A DNA stretch of 64,000 bases from Ignavibacteria bacterium. GTDB taxonomy: Bacteria; Bacteroidota; Ignavibacteria; Tepidaquicellales; OLB5. The notes under the pieces were generated by a model. It was given only the letters and a program-made list of their open reading frames with translations, had not been told where the DNA came from and ran no database searches. The DNA lies in contig JBEKSX010000001.1 in NCBI GenBank assembly GCA_049516635.1, positions 1,671 through 65,670 on the forward strand. The letters run 5' to 3'. Below, piece after piece: positions 37,586 to 57,028 of the stretch (within the stretch, counting starts at the first letter, position 1; every line of letters starts with the position of its first letter). Made by a program: the position numbers and the translations under genes.

Positions 37586-39586
37586 CTATTTGACCAATAC
37601 CATTTTCTTCACATCTGTGAAATCACCAGCTGTCAGCCTGTAATAGTAAATACCGCTGGAGAGGTTTTGCGCATTAAATGTAATATCATAGTTACCAGCA
37701 GGTTTTGTTTCATTGTTTATCAATGAAGATACTTCTCTTCCAAGAACATCATATACTTTCAAGTTAACCAGTGATTGCTTTGGCAACGCGTAATATATTA
37801 TGGTAGTAGGATTGAAAGGATTAGGGAAATTTTGGTCCAAATTATAAACAGTCGGAATAGAATTTTGATTTTTTTGAATTCCAAATAAATTACTCACCAT
37901 TAGCTGCCAGGTTCTGTTATGCGACCTGATCCCGCTTGCTTCAGTGCCTGTTACTGAGATAAAATAAGTTGCATTAGGAACCGTTGATGAAACTACTGTA
38001 TTGAGTGTCAATGAATCCGGATTTCCGTTAATAGTCTTTACGTTGCTTGGTGACCAGTTGAATGTAATAGTACCTTGAGCCGGAGGTGATACTGAAGCTG
38101 TATATGTAATAGTTCCTGCATAAGGACCATGTAACGGTATATATACTTTATTAACTGAAGTTGCCCCCTGGGTTACAGAATCTACAAATTTACTGAATGT
38201 CAAACCGAAATCAGGCAGATATGCTGTATAATCGTTCAGGTTATTACCCTGGCAGCAATAGAACGGGAAAGTAATACCTCTACTGGCTATCATCTGGTAA
38301 TCACCTAAATAATAATGGCTCGGTCCCTGATATATCTTTATCACAGCCGGGTTAAAATTCTGGTTCGATATCATAAAGTTACGCGCAAAGCTCGCACCAC
38401 CGTCGGTTGATACTGTTCCCCATGTTTCAACAAAATTATTATTTGTGGTATCAGTCCTTGAATCCCACCAATAACACCATACCCTACCAGCCGTATCGAC
38501 AGATACATACGGCATAAACTGATCGCAAAATGTATTATCATCGTTCACCCTCAAAGGTGAAGCAGAGTTCCAGGTCTGCCCACCGTCGGTGGAACGAGTC
38601 ATATAAATATCAGCCTGGTCAGGTCCCGGAGGATTGCAAGGATATATGTGATATACATATCCTCTGTAAGGACCATTTGTCATATCGACAGCAAGCATTC
38701 CCCATCCACTGACCCTGACATCTGTTTTCAGTACATATCTGCCCGATGCATTAATAGAGCCCGGGTTTGAATGAACCGAAGCTACTACACCGGCGGCAAA
38801 GGATGCACCGCCATCGGTGGATTTTCTAACGGTTGATCCCCCTCCATTATAAAAAGCAACGTACACTTCTCCATTAGGTCCTGTAGCAATATTCGGACCG
38901 GGATTAGGTGTTCCCCAACCCATCGGCAACGGTCCTGTCCAGGATGCACCACTATTCGTACTTCTCCAGAAGTCTACCGAGTAAGTGGCAAAATTCACGT
39001 ATGCGGTATATACATAAGTTCTATACGGACCGGAGGTTTGATCGCACGCTATCCATTCTTTATCTGCCGAAGAGTTGGAATTAATATTTCCAAGACTATT
39101 CCATGTAACACCCATATCAGTTGATTTAAAGACGAGCATTCCGTTATTGAGAACAGCGAGATAGAAGTTTCCAAGACTATCTGCTGCGAGTACATCATCA
39201 CCCTGATTATTGGTTAGATAATTTAAAGTTTGGTTCCAATTTACACCGCCATTTGTTGTATAGAAAATATACTTACCTCCTGCAAAACCGGTAACCCTGT
39301 TATCGGTGCCAACTGCATTCATTGAATTTCGTGGATTTACAGCCACTGAAGTCTCACAAAAACCTGCGGATTGCGAAACCTGGTAAACGTCGAAGGTACC
39401 ATATGGAACGACAACGTCAACACCATAGGGTTCGGTCGCAACAGCCAAAATCGGGATGAATCTTGTAGGATAAGCTATATCACTTTTCTTTTCATTTGGA
39501 TCTACCTGTGCATATAAATTAACTGCAATCATAATAAATAATACGACTGCAATTAATGTGATGAAGTAATTTTTGTTATTAACCAT
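37586..39586 (-). CDS. BNR/Asp-box repeat beta-propeller protein with Ig-like spacer and T9SS C-terminal sorting domain
   Basis: 666 aa. Asp-boxes are TTNGGVNW, STDMGVTW, STNSGASW, STDGGASF and STDGGQTW. The C-terminus reads NFPNPFNPTTIIYY...GIYYYRL...VKKMVLVK. Confidence 0.8.
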   Translation of the reverse strand: MVNNKNYFITLIAVVLFIMIAVNLYAQVDPNEKKSDIAYPTRFIPILAVATEPYGVDVVVPYGTFDVYQVSQSAGFCETSVAVNPRNSMNAVGTDNRVTGFAGGKYIFYTTNGGVNWNQTLNYLTNNQGDDVLAADSLGNFYLAVLNNGMLVFKSTDMGVTWNSLGNINSNSSADKEWIACDQTSGPYRTYVYTAYVNFATYSVDFWRSTNSGASWTGPLPMGWGTPNPGPNIATGPNGEVYVAFYNGGGSTVRKSTDGGASFAAGVVASVHSNPGSINASGRYVLKTDVRVSGWGMLAVDMTNGPYRGYVYHIYPCNPPGPDQADIYMTRSTDGGQTWNSASPLRVNDDNTFCDQFMPYVSVDTAGRVWCYWWDSRTDTTNNNFVETWGTVSTDGGASFARNFMISNQNFNPAVIKIYQGPSHYYLGDYQMIASRGITFPFYCCQGNNLNDYTAYLPDFGLTFSKFVDSVTQGATSVNKVYIPLHGPYAGTITYTASVSPPAQGTITFNWSPSNVKTINGNPDSLTLNTVVSSTVPNATYFISVTGTEASGIRSHNRTWQLMVSNLFGIQKNQNSIPTVYNLDQNFPNPFNPTTIIYYALPKQSLVNLKVYDVLGREVSSLINNETKPAGNYDITFNAQNLSSGIYYYRLTAGDFTDVKKMVLVK

Positions 39587-42689: not shown

Positions 42690-44255
42690 TCAATTGTTAT
42701 ATCCGTTTGTCCTTAACCATTCCTTCGCATCGGAATCACCCAATGAAGCTGCTTTCTCGAAATATCCGGCTGCTGTTTCTTTGTTACCCAAATTAACGTA
42801 CGCAACACCAAGGTTAAAATAACCATATGCTGAATTCGGGTTCACTTCGACTGCTCTGTTATAATCTTTTACCGCTTTCTTATAATTTCTTTGTTCAGCA
42901 TAAATATATCCCCTGTTAACATAGGCCTTTTCATAATCAGAGTTGAGCTGTATTGCTCTGGTGTAATCGTCAATGGCATCCGCGTAAGAATACAGTTCTG
43001 TATAAGCCTTTCCTCTGTAAAAATATGCATCCGCCGAGCCTGGATCGGCACTCAGCGAAATATTCAGATTGGCAACTGCGTTTTCGTAATCCCTATGCTC
43101 AATGCAATTTATTCCTTTGTTTAGATATTCTACTGCTGAAACAGAAGGTGCTTCGGATATCTGGTTTTCCTCTTTCGGCGTTTCTTCAACTCTAGGGGTC
43201 TCTTCGACCTTTGGGGCTTCAGTTACTTCTCTCTCTTCTGCTTTTGGTGTTTCAACTTTAGGCTGCTCCTGAAGTTCTTTTATCTCTTCTTTTGGAGCTT
43301 CTTCAATTTTTGGCGCTTCAGTGACCTGTTTCTCCTCAGCTTTATTTACTTCAGTCTTTGGTTCTTCCTTCTTCGGTTCAGTTACAACATTTTTTTCTTC
43401 TACCTTTGGTGTCTCCTCAACTTTAGGAACTTCCGCTATGGGTTTTTCTTCAATCTTTGGTTGTTCCACCTGGGGCTGTTCAACAGGTTGCTTCTCTTCC
43501 ACTTTTGGGGCTTCGCTTATTGGTTTTTCTTCAACTTTAGGTTGTTCTACTTTCGGAGCTTCTGTTACCGGTTTTTCTTCAACCTTTGGTTGTTCTACTT
43601 TAGGGATCTCTGTTACCGGTTTTTCTTCAACCTTTGGTTGTTCCACTTTAGGCTGTTCCTCGATTTTAGGTGCTTCAGTAATCTGATTATCCTCTGACTT
43701 CGTTGTCAAGCCTGCATCGACAAATTCTTTTGCGGACAGACGATCTTTTGCAAGGCCATAGTTAGGATTGATATCTATAGCTTTTGAAAAATCATTGAAT
43801 GAATTTTTATAATCCTTTAGAGCGAAATACGCATTACCGCGGTCATAGTAGAATTCCGAGTTTTGAGGTTCCATACCGAGAGCAGAAGTATAATCACTTA
43901 CAGCTTTGGCATATTCCCTGTTATCGTAATACGAAAGCCCGCGGTTCACGAAACCTCTCGTTGTCTTCGGTTCAAGAATAATGACTCTGGTAAAATCGCT
44001 TATGGCTTTGTTGTAGATTTTAATCTTTCTGTACAGGGTACCCCTATTGAAATATGCATCTATATAATTATAATCGATCCCCAGGGCCATTGAATAATAT
44101 ATTATCGCTTCATCATAATTATTTGCCTTTTCGGATTCGAGAGCTGAATTAAAAAATTTCACAGCTTCCCTGTCCTGTGCCTGGGTCCGAAAGGAAGATG
44201 ATAATAAAATGAACAAAAAAATAAAAAAAGAAGTATATTTAACTATTGCTTTCAT
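42690..44255 (-). CDS. TPR-repeat protein with central Pro/Glu/Lys/Val-rich tandem-repeat spacer
   Basis: 521 aa. A signal peptide is followed by four or five TPR units (AIIYYSMALGIDYNYIDAYFNRG...), about 180 aa of EQPKVEEKPVTEAPKV-type repeats, and three or four more TPR units. Confidence 0.8.
   Translation of the reverse strand: MKAIVKYTSFFIFLFILLSSSFRTQAQDREAVKFFNSALESEKANNYDEAIIYYSMALGIDYNYIDAYFNRGTLYRKIKIYNKAISDFTRVIILEPKTTRGFVNRGLSYYDNREYAKAVSDYTSALGMEPQNSEFYYDRGNAYFALKDYKNSFNDFSKAIDINPNYGLAKDRLSAKEFVDAGLTTKSEDNQITEAPKIEEQPKVEQPKVEEKPVTEIPKVEQPKVEEKPVTEAPKVEQPKVEEKPISEAPKVEEKQPVEQPQVEQPKIEEKPIAEVPKVEETPKVEEKNVVTEPKKEEPKTEVNKAEEKQVTEAPKIEEAPKEEIKELQEQPKVETPKAEEREVTEAPKVEETPRVEETPKEENQISEAPSVSAVEYLNKGINCIEHRDYENAVANLNISLSADPGSADAYFYRGKAYTELYSYADAIDDYTRAIQLNSDYEKAYVNRGYIYAEQRNYKKAVKDYNRAVEVNPNSAYGYFNLGVAYVNLGNKETAAGYFEKAASLGDSDAKEWLRTNGYNN
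43522..43665 (-). repeat. Three near-identical 48-bp in-frame tandem repeats (core of a longer degenerate array, about 43140-43690)
   Basis: Copies of ggtttttcttcaacctttggttgttctactttagggatctctgttacc start at 43522, 43570 and 43618. Each encodes a 16-aa unit. Confidence 0.85.
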
Positions 44256-44828: not shown

Positions 44829-45368
44829 TTAATGCACGCACAAATTATAATTATGTGTCTTTTCCAAACAGCTTTTACAATAAATATTCCCTTTTATATC
44901 AATTTCTTCTATTTCAAGCGAGGCATGCATCACACAGTCCCAGTCAATGCAATGTATAAGCCCAAAATTATGTCCAAGTTCATGCAGTACCTCTTTCATT
45001 GAACGTTGGTACAGCAATTCATCATCCGAACGCCCGGAATAGAATTCTTCATGCAGCCGGCAAATAGAGACTATGCAGTGTTTACCCCCGAGCTGCGCTT
45101 CACCGTAAATAAAAGTAAGCACCGGGACAAACAGGTCATGTTCGGTAAGGAGGATGATCTTTCCATCATAATCCGATGTTCGGTTCATTGCCTGTGAGAT
45201 AATCTGTGTTGAGTAGTACTGTCTCCGTTCTGCAGAGTAAGCAGATTCTATATCTAGATTCAGATCTACGATTTTAACCGATATGTGGAAAATATCAGAA
45301 AGACCATTACGAATCTTTTGGATCAGTGTTGTATTGGAAAATTTAACCGGGACAAGATAGAGGTTCAT
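44829..45368 (-). CDS. amzA: Archaemetzincin-like zinc metalloprotease (M54 family)
   Basis: 179 aa. HELGHNFGLIHCIDWDCVMH-x15-CKSC matches the archaemetzincin signature HExxHxxGx3Cx4CxM...CxxC, with spacing one residue shorter than the published X17. The start ATG overlaps the upstream stop (ATAATG). Confidence 0.8.
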   Translation of the reverse strand: MNLYLVPVKFSNTTLIQKIRNGLSDIFHISVKIVDLNLDIESAYSAERRQYYSTQIISQAMNRTSDYDGKIILLTEHDLFVPVLTFIYGEAQLGGKHCIVSICRLHEEFYSGRSDDELLYQRSMKEVLHELGHNFGLIHCIDWDCVMHASLEIEEIDIKGNIYCKSCLEKTHNYNLCVH

Positions 45369-46717
45369 TATTGGGAATTTTTTCGGAACCCGTATTTATT
45401 GATCTTGTTATATAAAGTAACCCTGTCGATCTGGAGCAATTCAGCACTCCTCGAGATATTCCATTCATTTTCCACGAGTATCTTATATATATGCTTTTTC
45501 TCCATTGCAGAGAGACTTTTATCGGAATCATCGTCTGTGATCTGGCTTACGCTGAACGGAAGATCTTCGAACTTTATTGTATCCGATTTACCTATCACGA
45601 CTGCTCGTTCAATGGCATTCTCAAGCTCACGCACATTACCGGGCCAGGAATAATTAAGCATGAAATTCATAGCTTCGGGGGAAATGCTCTTTATGTTCTT
45701 GTTCATTGCAGAAGTGAGCTTGTTAAGGAAATAATAAGCAAGCACCGAAATGTCCTCTTTACGTTCTCTCAAGGGTGGAATAAATATTGTAAATACATTC
45801 AGACGATAGAATAGATCTTCACGGAACTTCCCTTCTTTTACAAGCTCTTCTAAAGATTCGTTCGTAGCAGCAATCACCCTGAAATCGCTCGAAATGAGTT
45901 CGTTGCCTCCTACCCGGTTAAACTTCTTCGTTTCAATGACACGAAGCAATTCTATCTGTACCTTTTGAGATACTGAGCCTATCTCATCCAGAAATATGGT
46001 ACCGCCCTGTGCCATCTCGAACTTACCCTTTCTTTTGTACTGTGCCCCTGTGAAAGCCCCTTTTTCATGCCCGAAGAGCTCGCTTTCCAGCAAAGATTCT
46101 GCAAGAGCTCCGCAGTTGACAACAACTATCGGGAAATATCTTCTTTTGCTGTTTATGTGTATTGCTTTAGCTATTAACTCTTTCCCGGTGCCGCTTTCTC
46201 CCCGGATCATTACGGTCGTATCAGTAGGTGCTACTGTATTTATCAGGTCGAATATCTTTTTCATCTGTTTGCTTTCACCGGCAAGATTATCAGGCATTAT
46301 GAGTTCTTTAATCTTTGATTTTAGCTGTACATTCTCGCTCCTCAACTCTCTCTGTTCAAGTGCCTTTTTAACAAGGTGATTCAATTCATCAGGATCGACA
46401 GGTTTTGTAACATAATCAAATGCCCCGTCTTTTAGTGCCTTTATGGCAGATGAAACTGATGCGAAAGCAGTGATCAATATGACAATACTGTCCTTATCGA
46501 TCTCCTTAATTTTAACCAGGAGGTCTAATCCGTTCATACCCGGCATTTTCATATCAACGAGCAGGAGATCATATTTATCTTTGGTAAATTTCTTCAATGC
46601 CGTTTCAGCATCCTCAGCTGTATCAACGTGGTATCCTTCTTCTTCAAACCAATGAAAAAGAGAATCCCTTACGATTTTTTCGTCATCAACTATTAATATA
46701 CTTGCTCTTGAATTCAT
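45368..46717 (-). CDS. Sigma-54-dependent response regulator (NtrC family: receiver, AAA+ and HTH domains)
   Basis: 449 aa. It has a receiver (ILIVDDE...DLLLVDMKMPGMNG), an AAA+ domain (GESGTGKE, GAFTGA loop as EKGAFTGA, FREDLFYRL) and a C-terminal Fis-type HTH. Confidence 0.9.
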   Translation of the reverse strand: MNSRASILIVDDEKIVRDSLFHWFEEEGYHVDTAEDAETALKKFTKDKYDLLLVDMKMPGMNGLDLLVKIKEIDKDSIVILITAFASVSSAIKALKDGAFDYVTKPVDPDELNHLVKKALEQRELRSENVQLKSKIKELIMPDNLAGESKQMKKIFDLINTVAPTDTTVMIRGESGTGKELIAKAIHINSKRRYFPIVVVNCGALAESLLESELFGHEKGAFTGAQYKRKGKFEMAQGGTIFLDEIGSVSQKVQIELLRVIETKKFNRVGGNELISSDFRVIAATNESLEELVKEGKFREDLFYRLNVFTIFIPPLRERKEDISVLAYYFLNKLTSAMNKNIKSISPEAMNFMLNYSWPGNVRELENAIERAVVIGKSDTIKFEDLPFSVSQITDDDSDKSLSAMEKKHIYKILVENEWNISRSAELLQIDRVTLYNKINKYGFRKNSQ

Positions 46718-46723
46718 ATTTAT

Positions 46724-48316
46724 TCACTTGTTGTTTAAATTTATGGGTAAAGTAATTTTGAAAGTTGTACCTTGCTGCGAGGTTTCTTCTACTTCCACAT
46801 GTCCGTTATGCAGGCTGATAATTCCATAAACAACAGATAGCCCGAGTCCCGTTCCTTTAGCAGCTTCTTTTGTTGAGTAGAAAGGCTCGAAGATATGAGA
46901 TAGATCTTTTTCAGGTATGCCGAAACCCTCATCTTTTATACGAATTACAGCAAGATTATTCTCATGCTTTACATCAATGATAATCTGACCTCCATTCGGC
47001 ATAGATTCTATCGCATTGATCAACAATGACATTAAAGCCTGCTGTATCTTCTGGGAATTACAGTAGATTTCAATCTTTTCAAGGGGGTAATATTTTGTAA
47101 GTTTTACATTATTTATTTCAAGATGATGGTTAATTAGAGTAATGCTTTTATCAATTATCTGGGAGAGATCCGATTTAGTAAACTCATCCGTATCTCTATG
47201 AGAAAAGAGGAGGAGATCCTTAACGATCTTACCACACCGGGCAGACTCCTCGGCGATTAGGGTCAAAAATTCGATGATTTTTGTATAATCTTTGCCATCC
47301 TCAGAAGCTTTGAGTTTTTTTTGTATCAATTTACTGTATGTGAGTATACCTTCGAGCGGATTATTAAGTTCATGAGCTACCGTTGCCGATAACTTACCAA
47401 GAGATGCAAGACGCTCTATCTGAACCACCTGGTCGTAAATGTTTTTGAGCTCTTCTGTCTTTTGCTCCACCTTTACATTAAGATTTTCAGACCAATCCTT
47501 AATCTCTTTGTATGCCGTATCAAGTTTTCGAGACATGTCATTGAATTGCCTGGCGATTATACCCAGTTCATCTCTCGATTTTAATGGAATCCTATAGCTA
47601 AGGTTCCCTTTACCCACTTCCTCAATTCCTTTGGAAAGCTTTTTTAAAGGTTTGTTCACGAGCAAGAGGATAAATACACCACTGAACAGAGATATGAAAA
47701 CTGTAATAATAACAGAATTCAGGATCACCGTTTTTCGATTAGAGGATATAGTTTCATCTGCCTTCTTCATCGAAATCATTACATCGAGGACTCCCAGCAT
47801 TTCTAGATTCTTTTGATGAGCGTGACAGTCGGAATTGTAACAATCAGGTTCATTCTTTATGGGATTAATCAAACCCAGCACTCTTTCTTCTTTAGAAGCA
47901 TAAAAGAATCGCATTCGTTCATTTGCCGATATATAGCTAGATACCCCACTTTTCCCATGGCAAGCTATGCATGCCTCTGCCTTCATATCAACTGTTTTAT
48001 TTATTTCCGAAGAATCTGTCGAAAAAATAATGGTTCCCATTTTATTATATATCCTGATACCCTTCACACCGGGTTCATCGCCAATTGTCCTTATTATCTG
48101 GTAAACATCATTCCTTTTATTGAGAAGCATACTATATCGTGTTGAACGCTTAATTATATCACTGATATTATAAGCATTTTGCTGGTATAATTTAGTGATG
48201 TCATTTTCAAGGTAATAGATGGTAATATAGGTATGCAAGGAAAATATTGCTATCAGTATAAGAGAAGTTACAAGCAGCAGCTTAACGCTTAGTTTATTAA
48301 ATAATTTCACTTTCAT
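46724..48316 (-). CDS. Sensor histidine kinase with periplasmic domain carrying c-type heme-binding motifs, HAMP, HisKA and HATPase
   Basis: 530 aa with two TM helices bracketing ~150 aa that contain CIACH (CxxCH) and CYNSDCH (Cx4CH). HAMP follows, then H-box SATVAHELNNPL, N-box LINAIESM, and G-boxes DEGFGI and GTGLGLS. Confidence 0.85.
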   Translation of the reverse strand: MKVKLFNKLSVKLLLVTSLILIAIFSLHTYITIYYLENDITKLYQQNAYNISDIIKRSTRYSMLLNKRNDVYQIIRTIGDEPGVKGIRIYNKMGTIIFSTDSSEINKTVDMKAEACIACHGKSGVSSYISANERMRFFYASKEERVLGLINPIKNEPDCYNSDCHAHQKNLEMLGVLDVMISMKKADETISSNRKTVILNSVIITVFISLFSGVFILLLVNKPLKKLSKGIEEVGKGNLSYRIPLKSRDELGIIARQFNDMSRKLDTAYKEIKDWSENLNVKVEQKTEELKNIYDQVVQIERLASLGKLSATVAHELNNPLEGILTYSKLIQKKLKASEDGKDYTKIIEFLTLIAEESARCGKIVKDLLLFSHRDTDEFTKSDLSQIIDKSITLINHHLEINNVKLTKYYPLEKIEIYCNSQKIQQALMSLLINAIESMPNGGQIIIDVKHENNLAVIRIKDEGFGIPEKDLSHIFEPFYSTKEAAKGTGLGLSVVYGIISLHNGHVEVEETSQQGTTFKITLPINLNNK

Positions 48317-48471: not shown

Positions 48472-49209
48472 CTATTTTTTAAAAAAACTATTAATAAGAC
48501 AGGAATAGTTCTTCTTACCGATTGCTTCATATAAATATCTTACATTCTTACCCCCATCCATTATGGTTACTCCTGTTTCAGGATAAGTTGTAAGATAATT
48601 ATGCAAAGTATCTTCCATATTGGATAAATTGATCTCATATTCCGTTTCGCTGTAAGATGCATTCAAAATATCTTCGCGGTCAGCTTCAATCAGACCAAAC
48701 CATTCATTCGTTAAAAAGTCAAAAGAATCAAACTCAGATTTGTTAAGAAAGAGAAAAGTTATAGGAGAAGCAATATCGACCGAACCCCACTCTCCCTGGA
48801 TCTTAAGAAAAGATACACCGCGTTGGACATACCGGTCTCCATTTGTAAGGAAACGAACCGAATTTTGACAGTCAATCAGAATCAACACAGCAGGATTAAT
48901 GCCTATATAGAAAATATTCCCAAATAGATTTTTTACGATAAGGTTATTTTTTAAATAATAGTATGGAGGCCTGCGGTACTTAACATCATTCTTCAGCTTT
49001 TGTATTATTTTTTTGAAGAAGTCCGCATTCGGTGAATCATATTGTCCCTCGCCCTGCTTTATGCTCGCCTGGTTTCTCATAACCTGGTCAAATTCGCAAT
49101 TTTCACAGTCGAAATCTTTATCACAAAGCTTGTACTCAACCAGATTAGATGACATCCAGATACATTTCAGGTCATCGAATTTCTTATATGGTAGATCCTG
49201 TACGCTCAT
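48472..49209 (-). CDS. Hypothetical protein: N-terminal Cys4 motif plus diverged GcvH-like (H-protein fold) domain
   Basis: 245 aa. The Cys motif is C16-x12-C29-x5-C35-x2-C38 (KCIWMSSNLVEYKLCDKDFDCENCEFD). The core FYIGINPAVL...VQRGVSFLKIQGEWGSVDIASPI resembles the neighbouring GcvH-like protein. It shares the C-terminal GVTIMDGGKNV motif. Confidence 0.6.
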   Translation of the reverse strand: MSVQDLPYKKFDDLKCIWMSSNLVEYKLCDKDFDCENCEFDQVMRNQASIKQGEGQYDSPNADFFKKIIQKLKNDVKYRRPPYYYLKNNLIVKNLFGNIFYIGINPAVLILIDCQNSVRFLTNGDRYVQRGVSFLKIQGEWGSVDIASPITFLFLNKSEFDSFDFLTNEWFGLIEADREDILNASYSETEYEINLSNMEDTLHNYLTTYPETGVTIMDGGKNVRYLYEAIGKKNYSCLINSFFKK

Positions 49210-49246
49210 ACTATGTTATTGATACCTGTATTAAATTACAAAAATA

Positions 49247-49927
49247 TCAAAATGATAAAAATTCTTCTTCAAATTGCTTCATCCCCTCATCATCGATCTT
49301 TGCAAGAGCTCCCTGTATAACATTACCGCCGTCATACATAGTTACACCGACGGGTTCAGCCCTGAATGCATTCTCGCTTAAAAAATCCTTTAATCTTTTG
49401 AACTCATCTTTCATCCAGTTAATAGCAATATGGCTCTTCTTCAATGTATTTAAGTTATCTTCCATATTGATAGGAGCTATTACCAGACCCCAGTCTTCAT
49501 ACGGGTCGTTCAAAGCTTTGCCGATTATATTTTGATTTACCGATCTTACAATCCCAAAGACAGGAGAACGGAATTTTACAAATTTAGAATCAAATTTACC
49601 TTCAAGTATAATATCTCCTTGTTTAACAAATCTGTTTTCCGGGACGATCTTTTCTATGGAAATCTTTCCTAAAGCTTTAAGCACAAAATCGTCTACTCCG
49701 ATCTTCAACAACCCGTTTTCAAATATCTTTGCCCAGGTATGACCTTTATAAAAGTAATATCCTTCAGGCGCTAATATGCTCTTTTTAGTAAATACGGGGG
49801 CAGTAGAAGCCAAAGGTGATCTTGAATACTTTTCAGTTGCCGCTTTACTAGCTTTTCTATGCTTTATTACAAGAATATCTCCAATAATAAATAGTACTGC
49901 TGTAATTAAGACTAATAATGCTATCAT
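49247..49927 (-). CDS. Membrane-anchored GcvH-like (glycine cleavage H-protein fold) protein without the canonical lipoylation box
   Basis: 226 aa. An N-terminal TM helix is followed by YKGHTWAKI..G.LKIGVDDFVLKALGKI...VKQGD...FRSPVFGIVRSVNQNI...LNDPYEDWGLVIAP, which tracks the H-protein pattern. ESVKA is replaced by EGKFDSKFVKF. Confidence 0.65.
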   Translation of the reverse strand: MIALLVLITAVLFIIGDILVIKHRKASKAATEKYSRSPLASTAPVFTKKSILAPEGYYFYKGHTWAKIFENGLLKIGVDDFVLKALGKISIEKIVPENRFVKQGDIILEGKFDSKFVKFRSPVFGIVRSVNQNIIGKALNDPYEDWGLVIAPINMEDNLNTLKKSHIAINWMKDEFKRLKDFLSENAFRAEPVGVTMYDGGNVIQGALAKIDDEGMKQFEEEFLSF

Positions 49928-50376
49928 GATAAATCTCCTTTAAATTATGGTTTACATATATTTATAGCTCAAATCTTGTTCCAAACTTACTGTAATATAA
50001 TCATTCTTAAACATCTGTTATTCTTATATTTATATTTAACTTAATAAGCATTTGTATTTCTTAAGATGTATGATGTTTAATATTTTTACATATTTATTTG
50101 TGTAATTGCATATTATTGACTTCAATACCATTTGAAATTAATGTCATTGATGAATTTTTATACATAATACTGTTGAATAATTTTACACATATATAGGATA
50201 TTAAATGATTTCTTTTAAAATCTTTGTAGAATTTAAAGGTTTAACCAACTACACAAGTAAATTTGGTTTAATTACTATGTTTTTCACATTACTGATATAT
50301 TTATCCTATGAATCAAAAGACATTATTTATTAAATTTGATTTTACTGAATAATATTTCGTTACTGTAAATATTCGA

Positions 50377-52129: not shown

Positions 52130-52378
52130 TTATTTATTTAAGTTTAAAATCGAATTATCTTCTGACTTAGAATTATCTGCATTTCTGAATCCATGAAATC
52201 CGGGATTAAATTTAAAATTTTTTCTTAACAATACTTTATATCCGGTGTTATCGTTACTGATACAACCTTCCGGTTTATAAGACCATGTAAAATCAACAGG
52301 AATGTCTTCTGTAGTAATAATAAATGAACTTTTTTTAGATGGTTTCTCTATAATCATTAGGATTTCTCTTTTTTTCAC
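52130..52378 (-). CDS. Hypothetical small protein
   Basis: 82-aa ORF 30 nt upstream of the 68-aa ORF on the same strand, with no recognisable motif. Confidence 0.4.
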   Translation of the reverse strand: MKKREILMIIEKPSKKSSFIITTEDIPVDFTWSYKPEGCISNDNTGYKVLLRKNFKFNPGFHGFRNADNSKSEDNSILNLNK

Positions 52379-52618
52379 TTTCTTAATAAAGATAGCAATA
52401 TTTATGCCAAATCTAATAAATCTAAGGGGAGATGAATAATTATTTAACTCGTTGATATTCAGAAGAATATTACAAAATAATTAGGATTTTGAGCCCTTTC
52501 TAAAAGTCAAGAGTGTTAATTGTAGTGAAATTGGACAGTCTGAAGGTAAAATGTGGACACGAAAAGTTATGATTCATAACTAACAGAATAACAGTAACCG
52601 TATATAGAAAATATTTTA

Positions 52619-55600
52619 TTACTCGAATATAATTGTGAATAAAGTACCCTTTGGTCGGGTTATCTGGATTGAACCTCTAATCTGCTCAACTAAAGTAGAG
52701 ATGAGCTTCAATCCGAACGTACGGGATTCTGTGATATTGATTTTATCAGGAATACCAATTCCATCGTCTTTGACTTCGAGGGTGTATTTGTTTTGCTTAA
52801 GTGTTAACCTGATAAGAATCATTCCTTTCTTACGTCCTTTAAAGGCGTGTTTATATGAATTCGTTACAAGCTCATTAATAATAAGTCCACATGGTATGGC
52901 ATTATCGATGGACATAAAAATGTCCTTGGCTTCAAGGTTGACCTCAACAGCCGGTTTGCTTGTTCCGAAAGACTGCATGATGTAGGCAATTAGTGTTCTT
53001 AGATATTCATCGAAATTTATTTTACCCAGATTCTTCGATTGATACAGTTTCTGGTGTATGAGAGCCATAGATTGTACACGGTTTTGACTTTCTTTGAACA
53101 ATTCCAGTGCTCGTTTATCTTTTACATAGGTTGATTGTAGCTTCAGCAGGCTCGTGATTATCTGAAGATTATTTTTTACCCTGTGATGAATTTCTTTAAG
53201 AAGCACCTCTTTTTCAAGAAGCGATTGTTTTATTTCATCTTCGGATTTCTTCAGCTCGGTAATATCACGTCCCACTGACTGGTATCCAATAATTTTTTTA
53301 TTCTCATCGAATAAAGCCCTATCGGTCCATCTTTGCCATCTTATCTCTTTATCAGGCATCACCATCCTATGTTCGATAGTGGCAACAGGGTTTTGAAAAT
53401 TAAGAGATTTAAAATGTTTTTCGAACTTTTGATACTCTTCTTCGGGAATGGTGATATAAAACTTAGTCCCTATCAATTCGTTCTTAGATTTTTTGAAATA
53501 CCTGCTATAAGCATCATTCACATAAGTCAGAGTGCCATCCGGCATCCATCGGTAGATCATTTCCGTTTGGTCCTCAACTATGGCGCGGTATCTTGCTTCA
53601 CTTTCACGAAGAGCTTCTTCAATTACTTTGCGTTCTGTTATATCTATAGCAGTTCCGAGTACTGCCGGTTTACCATTATAAATTACCTGCGCTGATGAAT
53701 AATCCACCCATTTTTCGGTTCCCTCTTTTGTTAAAATCTTCATTTCATATCTTACCGGTTCTTTCTTACCGAGCAGTTTATTGAGCCCTCTTTGTTTTGC
53801 GACATCCTTAAAATCGGGATGCGTAAATTCCCAAAAATTCTCACCTACTATTTCATCAACTTTGTATCCTGTAAGAATTTCAGCATACGGATTAGCATAC
53901 ACGAATCTTTCATCTTGAAAGATGACTATTTCCGCGGGCATACATTCAGCCACAACACGAAATTTTTCTTCACTTAGTTTGATGAGATCCTCAGCATTTT
54001 TAACTTCAGTTACATCCAGTACGAGACTTAAAATTGCTTTTTGATTCTCGTATTCTATAAGCACTGATGATATTTGTGCCCACCTTTCTTTACCTGACCT
54101 GGAAATTATTATAAAATCATAGACAGGATCTACATATTCTCCTTTCATCTGTGTTATGATTCTTTCTTTTATAACTTTCTTGTAATCGGGACGAACCAAA
54201 TCAAGAAAGTTCATCTTAAAGAGATCTTTCGCTTCATAACCGAATATGTGCTCAAAGTACGGATTCACATACACAATTCTTTCTCCTTTTGTAATTACAA
54301 TTGATGCCTGTATTGCTTCCGTAACAGCACGGAATTTCAGCTCACTTTGCTTTAATGCTTCTTCAGCAGCCTTACGCTCACTGATATCAATGCATATCTG
54401 GATAACTGCATGTGTGTTTCCGAAAGAATCAAATTCCGCATACAAATAAGTATCAAGCCAGACAACTTTTTTATTTCGGTTAATAATTCTGTAATCTATT
54501 CTCTTGACCCCTTTAAAGTTCTCTTTCCTCCACTGGTTATAGAATGAAAACACTCTTTCCCTATCTTCAGGATAAATCATATCAATAAGCTCGGTATCGG
54601 ACAGGGCATTGAATTCATCTTTAGTATATCCCGATTGCCGTGTGAATTCATCATTAACAAATTCGTAAGTACTGTCTTTCACTAACAAACGTGTTACAGC
54701 TAAAGGAGAGTTCTCAGCAAGTTTTCTATATTTCTCCTCACTTAATTGTAGTATATCACGTGACTTTTTTTGTTCTGTAATATCGAGGCCATTTCCGAGG
54801 ACAGCCGGTTTTCCATTCAATTCGAACAAAGTAACAGTAAAATCAAGCCATTTCTCTTCACCGCTCTTTGTCATTATTTTGGCTTCATATCTATTAATAA
54901 CTTTTTCCCCGCGGATTCTGGCGAGCCCCCGGCTCTTCAATATCTCCTTGAAATCTGGGTGGACTACGTCCCAGAATTTCATTTTTTTCACTTCATCGAG
55001 TGTATATCCCGTTAATTCTAGCGCGTACTCATTCCCATAAAGAAATTTTTCATTCTGAAAGATGTATATCGCGGCAGGGCTAATATCACAAACTGCCCTA
55101 AACTTTGCTTCGCTTAAGCGGACTGCTTCTTCGTATCGCTTTTGTTCGGTGATATCTATGTATAGCTGGTTAATTGCAACCGGATTTCCATTTGTATCCA
55201 GATCTGCATAATGATATGTATCAAGCCATAGTTGTTCGCCGAATTTATTAAATGCCCTGTAAATGATGTGATTTATTTCTTTAAATCCATCTTTCACCCA
55301 TGTATTATATATATTTGTTAAATTATCAAGATCATCCGGATGTATAAGCTCGTTCAGCTGATCTATGGATAGCTGATTAAATTCATCAAGGGTATACCCG
55401 GACTGTCTAATAAACTCATCATTTACAATTTCATACCTTTTGGTTTTTATTGATAATCTCGTTATAGCAATGGGAGCATTATGTGTTAGCTTTCGATATT
55501 TTTCTTCGCTATCCCGCAAAGAGAGATCAGCTTTCTTTCGTTCAGTAATATCACGCATTATTGCAAGTATTTCATCTTCACCGCTAACGACCAGACGGGT

Positions 55601-57028
55601 TTCAAAGCAAGTATCTTCTCCATTTTTTGAAATTGTAAATTCGAATGTTTGTGTTTCACCGGTCTTAAACGCTGCCGTAATATTTTTCTTCAGAGTTAAA
55701 GCAAATTCCGAAGGGAGCACATCATCAATTTTTTTATTTAGAAAATCCTGAGGTAAAAAGAAAAGGTCACTGATATTTTTTGCCTTACAATCTAAAAAAG
55801 TTCCTTCACTGTTGAATTGGAACATAATATCAGGTATAGTATTTATCAGTATAGTATTCCTGCGTTCGCTTTTCAACAGCTGTTCTTCAGCCTGTTTTTG
55901 CTGTGTAATATCCTGTGTAAATGCAATAACCCCTACTATTTGCCCTTTTTCATTTCGGTAAGGAATTTTATCGGTTTTAATCCATAAACTCTCACCCTTA
56001 TCCGTTTTGATCCTATCTACTATACCAAATTTGGGAATTCCTGTGCTTATTACTTCCCGGTCTTCTTCCAGGAACTTGGCTGCCTCATCAGGATAAAACT
56101 CCTCGGTATATTTACCCTCCATTTCTTCAACAGTACATCCTTTTATTTTTGCTGCAAGTTTATTCACTCTGAGAATCCTGTTGTTATCATCTTTATATGT
56201 AATCATTGCAGGCACGGTATCCAGTATTAATCTATACTCCTCTTGCTGTTTTCTTATTATCTGTTCTGCCCTTTTCTGTTCGGTAATATCGGTCATGATG
56301 CTTTCCAGGGCTATAGGCAGGTTTTTATCATTTGTTATGAGAACATTTCTTTGGTTTATCCACTTAATATCCCCATTTTTATGAATAATCTGATATTCAT
56401 ATATAGGCTGAACATCCCCTTCCAGTAGCCGGGACCATTGCACATCAAAATAGTGCCGCCAATCAGGATGTATGATATCCTTTAATAATAGAGGTTTATG
56501 ATAGAATTCTTCAGGACCATAACCTGTAATTTCTAAAGAAGCTTTATTCACGTATTCATAATGACCATCGGCTAGAGATATTCTATTAATCATATCCCGT
56601 GCATTTTCTGCAAGCCTGAAATAACGTTTTTCGCTCTCCTCTAACTTCTTTTCAGCATCAAATTTATATAGTGCCATTCTTATAGTGGCTTTCAGGTCTC
56701 TATCTTGAAATGGTTTAAGAATAAAACCATAGGGTTTAGTGGTTTTTGTTCTGTTCAGCGTATCATCATCTTCGTGCGCTGTTAGATAGACTACGGGTAT
56801 TTGATATAGATCTAATATCTTTTTTGCTGCTTCTATTCCATCAATATCTCCCTTCAAAAGTATGTCCATTAATATTAGATCGGGTTTGTATTCACCTGCT
56901 AATTTTATAGCTTCTTCTCCGGTTTCCACTATGTCAGAAGTTTCATATCCTAAACCTATGAGAGTCCTTTTAATATCAAATGCAATGATACTCTCATCTT
57001 CGACGATCATTATTTTTACCTTTGGCAA
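52619..57028 (-). CDS. Hybrid signalling protein: N-terminal receiver, about nine PAS domains, and a HisKA_2-type histidine kinase core
   Basis: 1469 aa. It has a receiver (IMIVEDE...DLILMDILL..DIDG), repeated PAS/PAC units each ending in DIT[EQ][QR]K, a HisKA_2 H-box EIHHRVKNNLQII, and HATPase motifs (NELVTNSYKHAF, DDGIGIP). Confidence 0.9.
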   Translation of the reverse strand: MPKVKIMIVEDESIIAFDIKRTLIGLGYETSDIVETGEEAIKLAGEYKPDLILMDILLKGDIDGIEAAKKILDLYQIPVVYLTAHEDDDTLNRTKTTKPYGFILKPFQDRDLKATIRMALYKFDAEKKLEESEKRYFRLAENARDMINRISLADGHYEYVNKASLEITGYGPEEFYHKPLLLKDIIHPDWRHYFDVQWSRLLEGDVQPIYEYQIIHKNGDIKWINQRNVLITNDKNLPIALESIMTDITEQKRAEQIIRKQQEEYRLILDTVPAMITYKDDNNRILRVNKLAAKIKGCTVEEMEGKYTEEFYPDEAAKFLEEDREVISTGIPKFGIVDRIKTDKGESLWIKTDKIPYRNEKGQIVGVIAFTQDITQQKQAEEQLLKSERRNTILINTIPDIMFQFNSEGTFLDCKAKNISDLFFLPQDFLNKKIDDVLPSEFALTLKKNITAAFKTGETQTFEFTISKNGEDTCFETRLVVSGEDEILAIMRDITERKKADLSLRDSEEKYRKLTHNAPIAITRLSIKTKRYEIVNDEFIRQSGYTLDEFNQLSIDQLNELIHPDDLDNLTNIYNTWVKDGFKEINHIIYRAFNKFGEQLWLDTYHYADLDTNGNPVAINQLYIDITEQKRYEEAVRLSEAKFRAVCDISPAAIYIFQNEKFLYGNEYALELTGYTLDEVKKMKFWDVVHPDFKEILKSRGLARIRGEKVINRYEAKIMTKSGEEKWLDFTVTLFELNGKPAVLGNGLDITEQKKSRDILQLSEEKYRKLAENSPLAVTRLLVKDSTYEFVNDEFTRQSGYTKDEFNALSDTELIDMIYPEDRERVFSFYNQWRKENFKGVKRIDYRIINRNKKVVWLDTYLYAEFDSFGNTHAVIQICIDISERKAAEEALKQSELKFRAVTEAIQASIVITKGERIVYVNPYFEHIFGYEAKDLFKMNFLDLVRPDYKKVIKERIITQMKGEYVDPVYDFIIISRSGKERWAQISSVLIEYENQKAILSLVLDVTEVKNAEDLIKLSEEKFRVVAECMPAEIVIFQDERFVYANPYAEILTGYKVDEIVGENFWEFTHPDFKDVAKQRGLNKLLGKKEPVRYEMKILTKEGTEKWVDYSSAQVIYNGKPAVLGTAIDITERKVIEEALRESEARYRAIVEDQTEMIYRWMPDGTLTYVNDAYSRYFKKSKNELIGTKFYITIPEEEYQKFEKHFKSLNFQNPVATIEHRMVMPDKEIRWQRWTDRALFDENKKIIGYQSVGRDITELKKSEDEIKQSLLEKEVLLKEIHHRVKNNLQIITSLLKLQSTYVKDKRALELFKESQNRVQSMALIHQKLYQSKNLGKINFDEYLRTLIAYIMQSFGTSKPAVEVNLEAKDIFMSIDNAIPCGLIINELVTNSYKHAFKGRKKGMILIRLTLKQNKYTLEVKDDGIGIPDKINITESRTFGLKLISTLVEQIRGSIQITRPKGTLFTIIFE

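What the first reader, a model, noticed from the sequence alone, without database searches (positions are those of the whole stretch)
47746..48196. Periplasmic sensor domain of the histidine kinase carries CxxCH and Cx4CH heme-c motifs
Between the two TM helices of the 530-aa kinase, the sequence contains AEACIACHGKSG (canonical CxxCH, nt ~47957-47980). About 40 residues later it contains EPDCYNSDCHAH (Cx4CH, nt ~47815-47845). Cx4CH is a spacing known from heme sites of tetraheme cytochrome c3.

Covalent heme-c sensor domains are known for a few Geobacter chemoreceptors and kinases. A di-heme periplasmic input feeding a sigma-54 activator is not a standard annotated architecture. It would imply sensing of redox state or of a small ligand (O2, NO, sulfide or a metal).
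Basis: partly seen in the sequence, partly recalled or inferred. Interest (0 to 1): 0.55.

Follow-up and report, generated by a model that had tools for sequence, protein, structure and literature searches.

The report
Two-haem periplasmic redox sensor kinase
The outward-facing sensor part of this bacterial signalling kinase almost certainly carries two covalently bound haem groups. It belongs to a large, little-studied family of redox or gas sensors first noticed in Geobacter, so it is a good example of a known kind, not a new one.

Summary
The 530-aa kinase (46724..48316, minus strand) has C116-IA-C119-H120 and C159-YNSD-C164-H165 between its two membrane helices. These are the only CxxCH or Cx4CH motifs in the window's 43 large ORFs.

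The motifs are strongly conserved:
- All 80 related genome loci carry both, as do 140 of 150 distant family representatives. Nine of the other ten are truncated, frameshifted or chimeric; one has Ser for the first Cys of site 2.
- The Cys-Cys spacing at site 2 varies from 2 to 5 residues while the CH stays fixed, as in haem-c attachment sites.

A family profile matches the solved Geobacter haem-c sensor domains GSU0935 (E=3.9e-6) and GSU0582 (E=2e-4). Site 2 aligns with their haem site Cys140/Cys143/His144. The invariant Met63 aligns with their redox-labile distal ligand Met60. Site 1 is an extra haem motif in a longer loop, and His167 (90% conserved) is its likely distal ligand. The predicted fold is a single Cache/PAS-like domain.

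Two-motif relatives were already noted in the literature (GSU0599, which by locus tag sits next to the sigma-54 regulator BccR, and Adeh_2011/3383). I therefore call this a new member of a known but uncharacterised kind. Haem binding itself is untested.

In passing, the kinase sits in a gene cluster conserved across phyla, behind a sigma-54-type promoter.

The parts
46724..48316 (-). Sensor histidine kinase, 530 aa: TM1, periplasmic domain, TM2, HAMP, HisKA, HATPase_c
   Evidence: ORF; Pfam domains; phospho-acceptor H-box SATVAHELNNP.
48212..48289 (-). TM1 (about residues 10-35), preceded by the Lys-rich cytoplasmic N-terminus MKVKLFNKLSVK
   Evidence: Hydropathy and flanking charges. The AlphaFold2 model shows one continuous helix over residues 8-64.
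47732..48211 (-). Periplasmic single Cache/PAS-like (PDC) sensor domain, residues ~36-195
   Evidence: AlphaFold2 model with mean pLDDT 80.3. Foldseek matches WalK, GSU0935 (3b42), KinD, DctB and CitA sensor domains. Family profile against 3b42 gives E=3.9e-6.
48128..48130 (-). Met63, the predicted redox-labile distal ligand of the site-2 haem, at the end of the helix that continues from TM1
   Evidence: Conserved in 133 of 133 sequences. Aligns with Met60 of GSU0935. Met60's role as distal ligand is from PMC8396549.
47957..47971 (-). Site 1: C116-I-A-C119-H120, a canonical CxxCH. It is an additional haem motif in the long connector between strands 2 and 3.
   Evidence: Present in all 80 loci and in 148 of 150 representatives; the two without it are fragments. 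No counterpart in GSU0935/0582: the profile has about 31 positions in this connector against about 15 residues in 3b42.
47816..47842 (-). Site 2: C159-YNSD-C164-H165 (Cx4CH), followed by A166-H167
   Evidence: Aligns with Cys140/Cys143/His144 of GSU0935. Spacing among representatives is 4 in 134, 3 in 3, 2 in 2 and 5 in 1. His167 is 90% conserved.
47663..47731 (-). TM2 (about residues 196-218)
   Evidence: Hydropathy, and four Lys/Arg just after the segment.
47522..47662 (-). HAMP domain
   Evidence: PF00672, E=8e-14.
46742..47401 (-). HisKA (47192-47401) and HATPase_c (46742-47056) kinase core
45368..46717 (-). Cognate NtrC-type response regulator: REC, sigma-54 AAA+ domain with GAFTGA at residue 220, and HTH_8. 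It starts 6 nt after the kinase stop codon.
   Evidence: The kinase-regulator pair is adjacent in all related loci long enough to show it.
44829..45368 (-). Archaemetzincin-family metalloprotease gene. Its start overlaps the regulator's stop, and it is conserved in the cluster.
   Evidence: NCBIfam NF033823, 155 bits against a cut-off of 145. Synteny.
48472..49209 (-). 245-aa protein with an N-terminal 4-Cys motif (C-x13-C-x5-C-x2-C) and a divergent GcvH-like body, conserved immediately upstream of the kinase
   Evidence: Homologues in distant loci hit PF01597 GCV_H.
49247..49927 (-). 226-aa protein with an N-terminal TM helix and a GcvH-like domain. It is the first gene of the conserved cluster.
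   Evidence: PF01597, E=1.8e-6. Synteny.
49968..49983 (-). Weak sigma-54 -24/-12-like element TGGAACAAGATTTGAG, 56 nt upstream of the first gene of the cluster
   Evidence: Near-consensus elements such as TGGCACGGTAATTGCA lie at the same position in orthologous loci. 13 of 63 upstream regions score at least 9.5, against 0 of 63 on the reverse strand. The window's own copy is poor.

Best explanation
**What it is.** The periplasmic domain is a single Cache/PAS-like sensor of the Geobacter GSU0582/GSU0935 haem-c sensor lineage, and it carries two covalently attached c-type haems.

**The two haems.**
- Haem B is attached at C159x4C164H165, the site homologous to Cys140/Cys143/His144 of GSU0935. 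His165 is its proximal ligand. Met63 is its distal ligand and sits at the end of the long helix that runs straight out of TM1.
- Haem A is attached at the extra C116xxC119H120 motif, in the lengthened loop that covers the Cache pocket. His120 is its proximal ligand and His167 is probably its distal ligand.

**How it signals (inferred by analogy).** In the Geobacter domains the haem is low-spin with Met bound when reduced, and loses the Met when oxidised or when NO or CO binds. By analogy, the redox state of the periplasmic electron-carrier pool, or a diatomic gas, sets the ligation of haem B. The resulting movement of the Met63 helix passes through TM1/TM2 and the HAMP domain to the kinase core. 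Haem A would act as a low-potential entry or relay haem.

**Output.** The kinase controls phosphorylation of the adjacent sigma-54 activator. That activator most likely drives the sigma-54-type promoter in front of its own cluster: GcvH-like genes, the kinase, the regulator and an archaemetzincin. In most relatives the cluster also holds an HmcB/HmcC-like quinone-linked FeS/membrane module.

**Shown versus inferred.**
- Shown: the motifs, their conservation, the homology and site correspondence, the predicted fold, the topology and the synteny.
- Inferred: haem attachment, the ligand assignments, the identity of the signal and the regulon.
For: - **Rarity.** The motifs are real and unique in the window.
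- **Topology.** The domain lies between two TM segments with positive charges on the cytoplasmic sides, so it is accessible to periplasmic cytochrome c maturation.
- **Conservation.** C116, C119, H120, C159, C164, H165, H167 and M63 are invariant in 23 homologues. In 133 diverse sequences M63 is 100%, C159 and C164 98%, H165 95% and H167 90%; site 1 was the selection anchor for this set. All 80 genome loci carry M63 + CxxCH + Cx4CHxH.
- **Spacing.** Site-2 spacing varies (4 in 134, 3 in 3, 2 in 2, 5 in 1) while the CH is fixed, the pattern expected of haem-c attachment sites.
- **Homology.** The family profile hits 3b42 (GSU0935) at E=3.9e-6 and 3b47 (GSU0582) at E=2e-4. Site 2 aligns with their CxxCH and Met63 with Met60.
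- **Pfam.** 18 of 25 diverse members match PF21563 Mcp40H-20_sensor, best E=3e-8.
- **Fold.** The AlphaFold2 model is a Cache/PDC fold, and Foldseek finds WalK, 3b42, KinD, DctB and CitA.
- **Properties of the Geobacter domains.** Met60 on/off behaviour, midpoint potentials of -156 and -251 mV, and NO/CO binding are reported in PMC8396549.
- **Output.** The regulator has REC, Sigma54_activat, a GAFTGA motif and HTH_8. Sigma-54 -24/-12 elements sit at a conserved position upstream of the cluster.
- **Redox context.**
  - HmcB/HmcC-like genes lie in 57 of 80 loci and in most of the distant relatives examined.
  - c7/c3-type cytochromes are fused or adjacent in three relatives, and one carries a CcsBA cytochrome c synthase gene nearby.
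- **Functional analogue.** The sigma-54 regulator BccR (GSU0598) is required for low-potential induction of cbcBA. GSU0599 is a two-haem-motif two-component protein.
Against: - There is no biochemical evidence for haem in this protein or in any two-motif member.
- The window protein itself matches PF21563 only at 16.8 bits against a cut-off of 27 (E=0.0087).
- Both motif loops are the least confident parts of the model, with pLDDT about 56-72. Model coordinates could not be inspected, so the Met63 and His167 ligand assignments rest on alignment and conservation only.
- The window contains no cytochrome c maturation genes and no rpoN.
- This window lacks the HmcB/HmcC-like genes found in most relatives. 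Its sigma-54-like element is weak, with TTGAG in place of TTGCW.
- The GSU0599 sequence could not be retrieved, so its relationship to this protein is known from the literature only.
Confidence: 0.65

Rival explanations
1. The domain has the same two-haem architecture, but its physiological signal is a diatomic gas or small ligand (NO, CO, O2 or sulfide) that displaces Met63 or binds a five-coordinate haem. It would not be reading ambient redox potential.
For: - The Geobacter domains bind NO in both redox states and CO when reduced.
- Signalling members of the wider haem-Cache family behave as NO sensors in vitro (PMC12889525).
- About 10% of family representatives lack His167, which could leave haem A with an open coordination site.
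Against: - The conserved neighbours are quinone-linked FeS/membrane modules and c7-type cytochromes. No NO- or CO-detoxifying genes were seen.
- The only functionally studied analogue with a sigma-54 regulator, BccR, responds to falling redox potential.
- Four conserved axial ligands for two haems suggest both are six-coordinate at rest.
Confidence: 0.2
2. Only the ancestral site 2 binds haem. The extra CxxCH at site 1 is a periplasmic thiol/disulfide switch or a metal site, not a second haem.
For: - Site 1 has no counterpart in the solved Geobacter domains.
- It lies in a low-confidence loop.
- No two-haem member has been characterised.
Against: - The His directly after the second Cys is invariant along with both cysteines in every complete sequence examined. 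A CxxC redox switch would not need that His.
- A second conserved distal-ligand candidate, His167, exists.
- The literature treats the second motif in GSU0599/GSU0591 and Adeh_2011/3383 as a haem-binding motif.
Confidence: 0.1
3. The four Cys and three His residues form a Zn, Cu or Fe-S site, and the domain is a metal sensor with no haem.
For: - Homologues give weak, sub-threshold Pfam hits to the CusS sensor and HMA_2.
- Cys/His-rich periplasmic metal sensors do exist (general knowledge).
Against: - Site 2 aligns residue for residue with a crystallographically proven haem attachment site, and Met63 aligns with its distal ligand.
- Variable Cys-Cys spacing with an invariant CH is typical of haem attachment, not of metal clusters.
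- The two motifs are 43 residues apart, each with its own His.
Confidence: 0.03

Closest known systems
Periplasmic haem-c sensor domains of the G. sulfurreducens chemoreceptors GSU0935 and GSU0582 (PDB 3B42, 3B47; Pfam PF21563 Mcp40H-20_sensor; placed in the 'sCache_heme' family by PMC12889525)
   Same: - A periplasmic Cache/PAS-like domain between two TM helices, followed by a HAMP domain.
- The haem attachment site lies at the same alignment position (C159/C164/H165 against Cys140/Cys143/His144).
- A conserved Met aligns with the distal ligand Met60.
- The profile-to-sequence match is significant: E=3.9e-6 and 2e-4.
   Different: - Those domains have one haem with CxxCH. This protein has Cx4CH at that site, plus a second CxxCH in a connector about 16 residues longer.
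- A conserved His lies two residues after the site-2 His.
- The output is a histidine kinase paired with a sigma-54 activator, not a chemoreceptor.
- The window protein scores below the Pfam threshold.
G. sulfurreducens GSU0599, a two-component protein with two CX2-4CH motifs, next to GSU0598/BccR; also Adeh_2011 and Adeh_3383 of Anaeromyxobacter
   Same: - Two haem-c motifs in a sensor domain homologous to GSU0935/0582 (PMC8396549, PMC3831638).
- A neighbouring sigma-54-dependent response regulator. BccR is required to induce the quinone-linked cytochrome CbcBA at low redox potential.
- The family found here is likewise clustered with quinone-linked membrane modules and c-type cytochromes.
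   Different: - The host phylum differs (Ignavibacteriota).
- The associated module is HmcB/HmcC-like with GcvH-like proteins, not CbcBA, and it is absent from this window.
- Sequence-level orthology to GSU0599 was not tested because the sequence was unobtainable.
- GSU0599 has never been characterised, and its link to BccR rests on locus-tag adjacency.
DcrA of Desulfovibrio vulgaris (c-type-haem chemoreceptor) and the DUF3365/Tll0287 haem-Cache domains
   Same: A covalent c-type haem sits in a periplasmic sensor domain proposed to sense redox state, O2 or NO.
   Different: - They have a single CxxCH.
- There is no detectable sequence match to the window protein. PF11845 gives only weak hits in two homologues (E=0.002 and 0.012).
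Tetrahaem cytochrome c3 and c7-type cytochromes
   Same: The Cx4CH attachment spacing occurs in cytochrome c3 (general knowledge).
   Different: - The fold is Cache/PDC, not c3.
- Only sub-threshold Pfam hits to Cytochrom_c3_2 and Cytochrome_C7 appear, in homologues.
- The similarity is limited to the motif.

Membership tests
Haem-c periplasmic Cache/PAS-like sensor domain (GSU0582/GSU0935 family; Pfam PF21563) | Extracytoplasmic location between two TM helices | tested here: met
   Two hydrophobic segments with positive-inside flanks. The model's helices are continuous with the TM segments.
Haem-c periplasmic Cache/PAS-like sensor domain (GSU0582/GSU0935 family; Pfam PF21563) | Single Cache/PDC (PAS-like) fold | tested here: met
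   AlphaFold2 model with pLDDT 80.3 and pTM 0.72. Foldseek finds WalK (E=6e-6), 3b42 (E=4e-6), KinD, DctB and CitA. This is a prediction, not a solved structure.
Haem-c periplasmic Cache/PAS-like sensor domain (GSU0582/GSU0935 family; Pfam PF21563) | Haem-c attachment motif (Cys-Xn-Cys-His) at the position of Cys140/Cys143/His144 | tested here: met
   C159/C164/H165 align with the C-Q-S-C-H of 3b42 and 3b47. The spacing here is 4, not 2, and a few family members have 2 or 3.
Haem-c periplasmic Cache/PAS-like sensor domain (GSU0582/GSU0935 family; Pfam PF21563) | Met in the N-terminal helix acting as distal ligand (Met60 of GSU0935) | tested here: met
   Met63 is invariant in 133 of 133 sequences and aligns with chain residue 26 of 3b42, which is Met60 (numbering).
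Haem-c periplasmic Cache/PAS-like sensor domain (GSU0582/GSU0935 family; Pfam PF21563) | Sequence match to the family model above the curated threshold | tested here: inconclusive
   The window domain scores 16.8 bits (E=0.0087) against a cut-off of 27. 18 of 25 diverse relatives match at E<=0.01, best 3e-8. Several close homologues score 27.8-31.2 bits. The family profile against 3b42 gives E=3.9e-6.
Haem-c periplasmic Cache/PAS-like sensor domain (GSU0582/GSU0935 family; Pfam PF21563) | Covalently bound haem c demonstrated | not testable with these tools
   This needs expression with a Ccm or Ccs system, haem staining, a pyridine haemochrome assay and mass spectrometry.
Two-haem-motif subgroup (GSU0599, GSU0591, Adeh_2011, Adeh_3383; Londer et al. 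2006) | Two CX2-4CH motifs in one periplasmic sensor domain homologous to GSU0935/0582 | tested here: met
   The definition is taken from PMC8396549 and PMC3831638.
Two-haem-motif subgroup (GSU0599, GSU0591, Adeh_2011, Adeh_3383; Londer et al. 2006) | Sequence relationship to GSU0599 itself, with the same positions for the two motifs | not tested
   The GSU0599 sequence could not be obtained. The one genome-contig scan returned only Ignavibacteria loci. The protein searches returned no Geobacter entries.
NtrB/NtrC-type two-component system with a sigma-54 enhancer-binding regulator | HisKA + HATPase_c kinase adjacent to a REC + sigma-54 AAA+ (GAFTGA) + HTH_8 regulator | tested here: met
   The genes are 6 nt apart, and the pair is conserved in related loci.
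Cytochrome c3 / c7 family | Multihaem c3/c7 fold with bis-His haems | tested here: not met
   The window protein has no Pfam c3/c7 hit. The predicted fold is Cache/PDC. Only the Cx4CH spacing is shared.
DUF3365/Tll0287 (Pfam PF11845) | Match to PF11845 | tested here: not met
   The window protein has no hit. Two homologues give sub-threshold hits only.

The most novel reading that the evidence does not exclude
This protein would represent a large two-haem branch of the haem-Cache sensors that spans several phyla. The branch has about 2,300 clusters at 50% identity, and all members examined are histidine kinases.

In this branch the ancestral haem site has shifted to Cx4CH and a second relay haem has been inserted. 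That relay haem would wire the sensor directly to the periplasmic cytochrome pool.

Together with its sigma-54 partner, the kinase would be the dedicated redox-potential switch for a previously undescribed conserved cluster. The cluster holds two GcvH-like proteins, an HmcB/HmcC-like quinone module, often a c7 cytochrome, and an archaemetzincin. It would be a second, wider example of BccR-type control of respiratory branching outside Geobacter.
Probability: 0.3. Interest if true: 0.6.

Novelty: new member of a known kind. Interest (0 to 1): 0.38.

Why it matters
How anaerobes sense extracellular or periplasmic redox potential and choose between respiratory branches is only partly understood. 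In Geobacter the sigma-54 regulator BccR is needed for low-potential respiration, but its sensor has not been studied.

This locus shows that a two-haem Cache-type kinase paired with a sigma-54 regulator is widespread:
- About 2,300 clusters at 50% identity match the sensor profile.
- Source names place members in Ignavibacteriota, Acidobacteriota, Myxococcota, Calditrichota and 'Deltaproteobacteria'.
- In most of the loci examined the kinase sits next to quinone-linked membrane modules.

The analysis gives specific residues to mutate: Met63, His167 and the two Cys pairs. It also points to a family gap in Pfam, because the domain is missed or scores below threshold.

For this particular window the result is a confident functional annotation, not a discovery of a new kind of system.

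Tried and rejected
**Searches that gave nothing useful**
- Searching the PDB with the single sensor-domain sequence gave only an insignificant hit on the cytochrome c4 motif (E=0.29). A family profile was needed.
- Model coordinates are not exposed, so I could not measure haem-ligand geometry (His120-His167, His165-Met63).

**Attempts to reach GSU0599**
- I tried two profile searches and a cluster-member look-up.
- All returned only metagenomic or MAG proteins without Geobacter names.
- Londer et al. 2006 is not held in the paper library.

**Context checks in the window**
- A window-wide scan for the sigma-54 consensus was at chance level: 23 matches against 21 expected. Only comparison at the orthologous position gave a signal.
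- Pfam scans of all large window ORFs for cytochrome c maturation genes, other cytochromes or rpoN found none.

**Readings considered and rejected**
- A cytochrome c3/c7 domain: the fold and the Pfam results do not fit.
- A metal-binding Cys/His site: the alignment to a proven haem site and the variable spacing argue against it.
- A chance motif: the expectation is about 2e-4, and the motifs are conserved.
Full report
**1. Observation**

The minus-strand ORF at 46724..48316 encodes a 530-aa histidine kinase. Its Pfam domains are HAMP (219-265), HisKA (306-375) and HATPase_c (421-525).

Hydropathy shows only two hydrophobic segments, at about residues 5-35 and 195-225. Four Lys/Arg lie in the first 12 residues and four just after the second segment. 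Residues ~36-195 therefore face the periplasm.

That stretch contains C116-I-A-C119-H120 (nt 47957-47971) and C159-Y-N-S-D-C164-H165-A-H167 (nt 47816-47842). These four cysteines are the only cysteines in the periplasmic domain. No other CxxCH or Cx4CH motif occurs in any of the 43 large ORFs of the window (18,928 aa). The expectation is about 2e-4 per motif per domain.

**2. Conservation**

A search with the N-terminal 215 aa found 43 homologues, mostly from Ignavibacteria or Bacteroidota MAGs. In a 23-sequence alignment C116, C119, H120, C159, C164, H165, H167 and M63 are invariant. One member has CTSCH, a canonical CxxCH, at site 2.

An exhaustive profile search of 1.84 billion representatives clustered at 50% identity gave:
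- 2,292 hits at E<=1e-3
- 1,277 hits at E<=1e-10
- 409 hits at E<=1e-30.

Among the best 150 representatives, 140 carry both motifs. Site-2 spacing is 4 residues in 134, 3 in 3, 2 in 2 and 5 in 1. Nine of the other ten are truncated, frameshifted or chimeric. One has Ser in place of the first Cys of site 2.

In an alignment of 133 diverse sequences:
- M63 is 100% conserved.
- C159 and C164 are 98% conserved.
- H165 is 95% conserved.
- H167 is 90% conserved.

Site 1 served as the anchor for choosing these 133 sequences, so its 100% there is not an independent result.

A scan of one genome per species found 484 genomes encoding a relative. The best 80 are nearly all labelled Ignavibacteria or Bacteroidota. 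All 80 carry M63, CxxCH and Cx4CH-x-H.

An invariant Cys-His pair with a variable Cys-Cys spacing is the signature of haem-c attachment sites. A metal cluster or a disulfide switch would not show it.

**3. Homology and fold**

No Pfam or NCBIfam family covers the window's sensor domain at default thresholds. Close homologues reach the gathering score of PF21563, Mcp40H-20_sensor. The only PDB sequences my family profile matched significantly, GSU0935 and GSU0582, are class-40H Geobacter chemoreceptors, and I take these to be that model's founders.

The window domain itself scores 16.8 bits (E=0.0087; cut-off 27). 18 of 25 diverse family members match at E<=0.01, best 3e-8.

A profile of 25 diverse members matches the PDB sequences 3b42 (GSU0935) at E=3.9e-6 and 3b47 (GSU0582) at E=2e-4. 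In that alignment:
- C159/C164/H165 fall on the C-Q-S-C-H haem site (Cys140/Cys143/His144).
- M63 falls on chain residue 26, which is Met60, the distal ligand seen in the GSU0935 crystal structure (numbering from PMC8396549).

The region holding site 1 is about 16 residues longer than in the Geobacter domains. Site 1 is therefore an added motif.

An AlphaFold2 model (pLDDT 80.3, pTM 0.72) gives a long N-terminal helix continuous with TM1 and ending at residue 64, followed by a five-stranded Cache/PDC core. Site 1 lies in the connector between strands 2 and 3. Site 2 lies between the last two strands. Both loops are the low-confidence parts, as expected for a model built without the cofactor. 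Foldseek against the PDB finds WalK, GSU0935, KinD, DctB and CitA sensor domains.

**4. Output and context**

The kinase stop codon is followed after 6 nt by a 449-aa regulator with REC, a sigma-54 AAA+ domain (GAFTGA at residue 220) and HTH_8. An archaemetzincin gene overlaps the regulator's stop codon.

The gene order in related loci is strongly conserved:
1. a GcvH-like membrane-anchored protein
2. in 57 of 80 loci, an HmcB/HybA-like 4Fe-4S protein and an HmcC/HybB (NrfD-family) membrane protein
3. a 4-Cys GcvH-like protein
4. the kinase
5. the sigma-54 regulator
6. the archaemetzincin.

This window and its closest relatives lack the HmcB/HmcC-like pair.

Most of the distant members examined (29-45% identity) keep the cluster, and several add cytochromes:
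- One has NrfD fused to a c7 cytochrome domain.
- An Acidobacteriota contig has a triheme c7 gene, then HmcB-like, HmcC-like and the kinase, with a CcsBA-type cytochrome c synthase gene nearby.
- One distant locus showed none of these neighbours.

A sigma-54 -24/-12 element lies 47-69 nt upstream of the first GcvH-like gene in most loci. L001, for example, has TGGCACGGTAATTGCA. 13 of 63 upstream regions score at least 9.5, against none on the opposite strand. The window's copy, TGGAACAAGATTTGAG at 49983..49968, is weak. The cluster is therefore probably sigma-54-dependent and autoregulated. This step is inferred.

**5. Mechanism**

The Geobacter domains are high-spin when oxidised and low-spin with Met60 bound when reduced. 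They bind NO and CO, and have midpoint potentials of -156 and -251 mV. They have been proposed to signal through redox-linked Met ligation (PMC8396549).

My proposal for this protein:
- Haem B (His165/Met63) is the switching haem. Met63 sits at the end of the TM1-continuous helix, so Met binding or release would couple directly to the TM helices and the HAMP domain.
- Haem A (His120, probably with His167) is an extra low-spin relay haem that equilibrates with periplasmic carriers.

The signal is most likely periplasmic redox poise. NO or CO sensing is the main rival.

**6. Comparison with what is known**

Two-motif members with a CX2-4CH signature are already listed for G. sulfurreducens (GSU0599, a two-component protein, and GSU0591) and for Anaeromyxobacter (Adeh_2011, Adeh_3383). 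GSU0598, adjacent to GSU0599 by locus tag, is BccR, the sigma-54 regulator required for induction of cbcBA at low potential.

A 2026 preprint (PMC12889525) defines a broad 'sCache_heme' family with a single strictly conserved CXXCH.

The present protein is therefore a new member, from Ignavibacteriota, of a known but experimentally untouched two-haem subgroup. I could not obtain the GSU0599 sequence to test orthology.

**7. Verdict**

The novelty is modest.

The family-level picture may deserve more follow-up than this single gene. It comprises the size of the family, the Cx4CH shift, the added haem, and the conserved cluster of GcvH-like, HmcBC-like, sigma-54 and archaemetzincin genes.

Noticed in passing
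window 48472..49927 (-); related loci L010 4477-7810, L082, L083, L086, L087: Two divergent GcvH-like proteins always precede the kinase. One has an N-terminal TM helix. The other has an N-terminal C-x13-C-x5-C-x2-C motif. By a rough hand alignment to E. coli GcvH recalled from memory, the lipoyl-lysine position in the first protein is a Ser, with a Lys one residue along. Their function is unknown.
   Followed up: partly
L010 5171-7104; 57 of 80 Ignavibacteria loci; L082-L084, L086, L087; absent from the window: An HmcB/HybA-like 4Fe-4S protein and an HmcC/HybB (NrfD-family) membrane protein sit inside the cluster in most relatives but have been lost from this window's lineage. The FeS protein aligns to HmcB only from profile position 37, so no Tat signal is visible. 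Its sidedness may therefore be unusual.
   Followed up: partly
window 44829..45368 (-): An archaemetzincin-family Zn protease gene overlaps the stop codon of the sigma-54 regulator. It is conserved at that position across phyla. It is an odd, unexplained partner for a redox two-component system.
   Followed up: partly
window 49968..49983 (-) and the orthologous positions in L001-L080: A sigma-54 -24/-12 element is conserved in position 47-69 nt upstream of the first GcvH-like gene. It is near-consensus in many relatives and degenerate in this window.
   Followed up: yes
window 52394..52409 (-) and the ORF at 52130..52378 (-): A one-mismatch sigma-54 consensus, TGGCATAAATATTGCT, lies 16 nt upstream of an 82-aa ORF, downstream of the large PAS kinase gene. 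It could be another sigma-54 target or a chance match.
   Followed up: no
window 52619..57028 (-): A 1469-aa protein has an N-terminal receiver domain, many PAS repeats and a C-terminal histidine-kinase-like region.
   Followed up: no
window 42690..44255 (-): A TPR protein has a central low-complexity region of about 200 aa made of PKVE(E/Q)-type repeats.
   Followed up: no
L049, around nt 3400 (+): A second, paralogous two-haem sensor (CYACH ... CWKSDCHAH) is encoded about 4.6 kb upstream of the orthologue in one Ignavibacteria MAG.
   Followed up: no
window 11467..12897, 23242..24156 and 37586..39586 (all -): Three proteins carry type IX secretion C-terminal sorting domains. This fits the Ignavibacteria/Bacteroidota origin suggested by the closest loci.
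   Followed up: no
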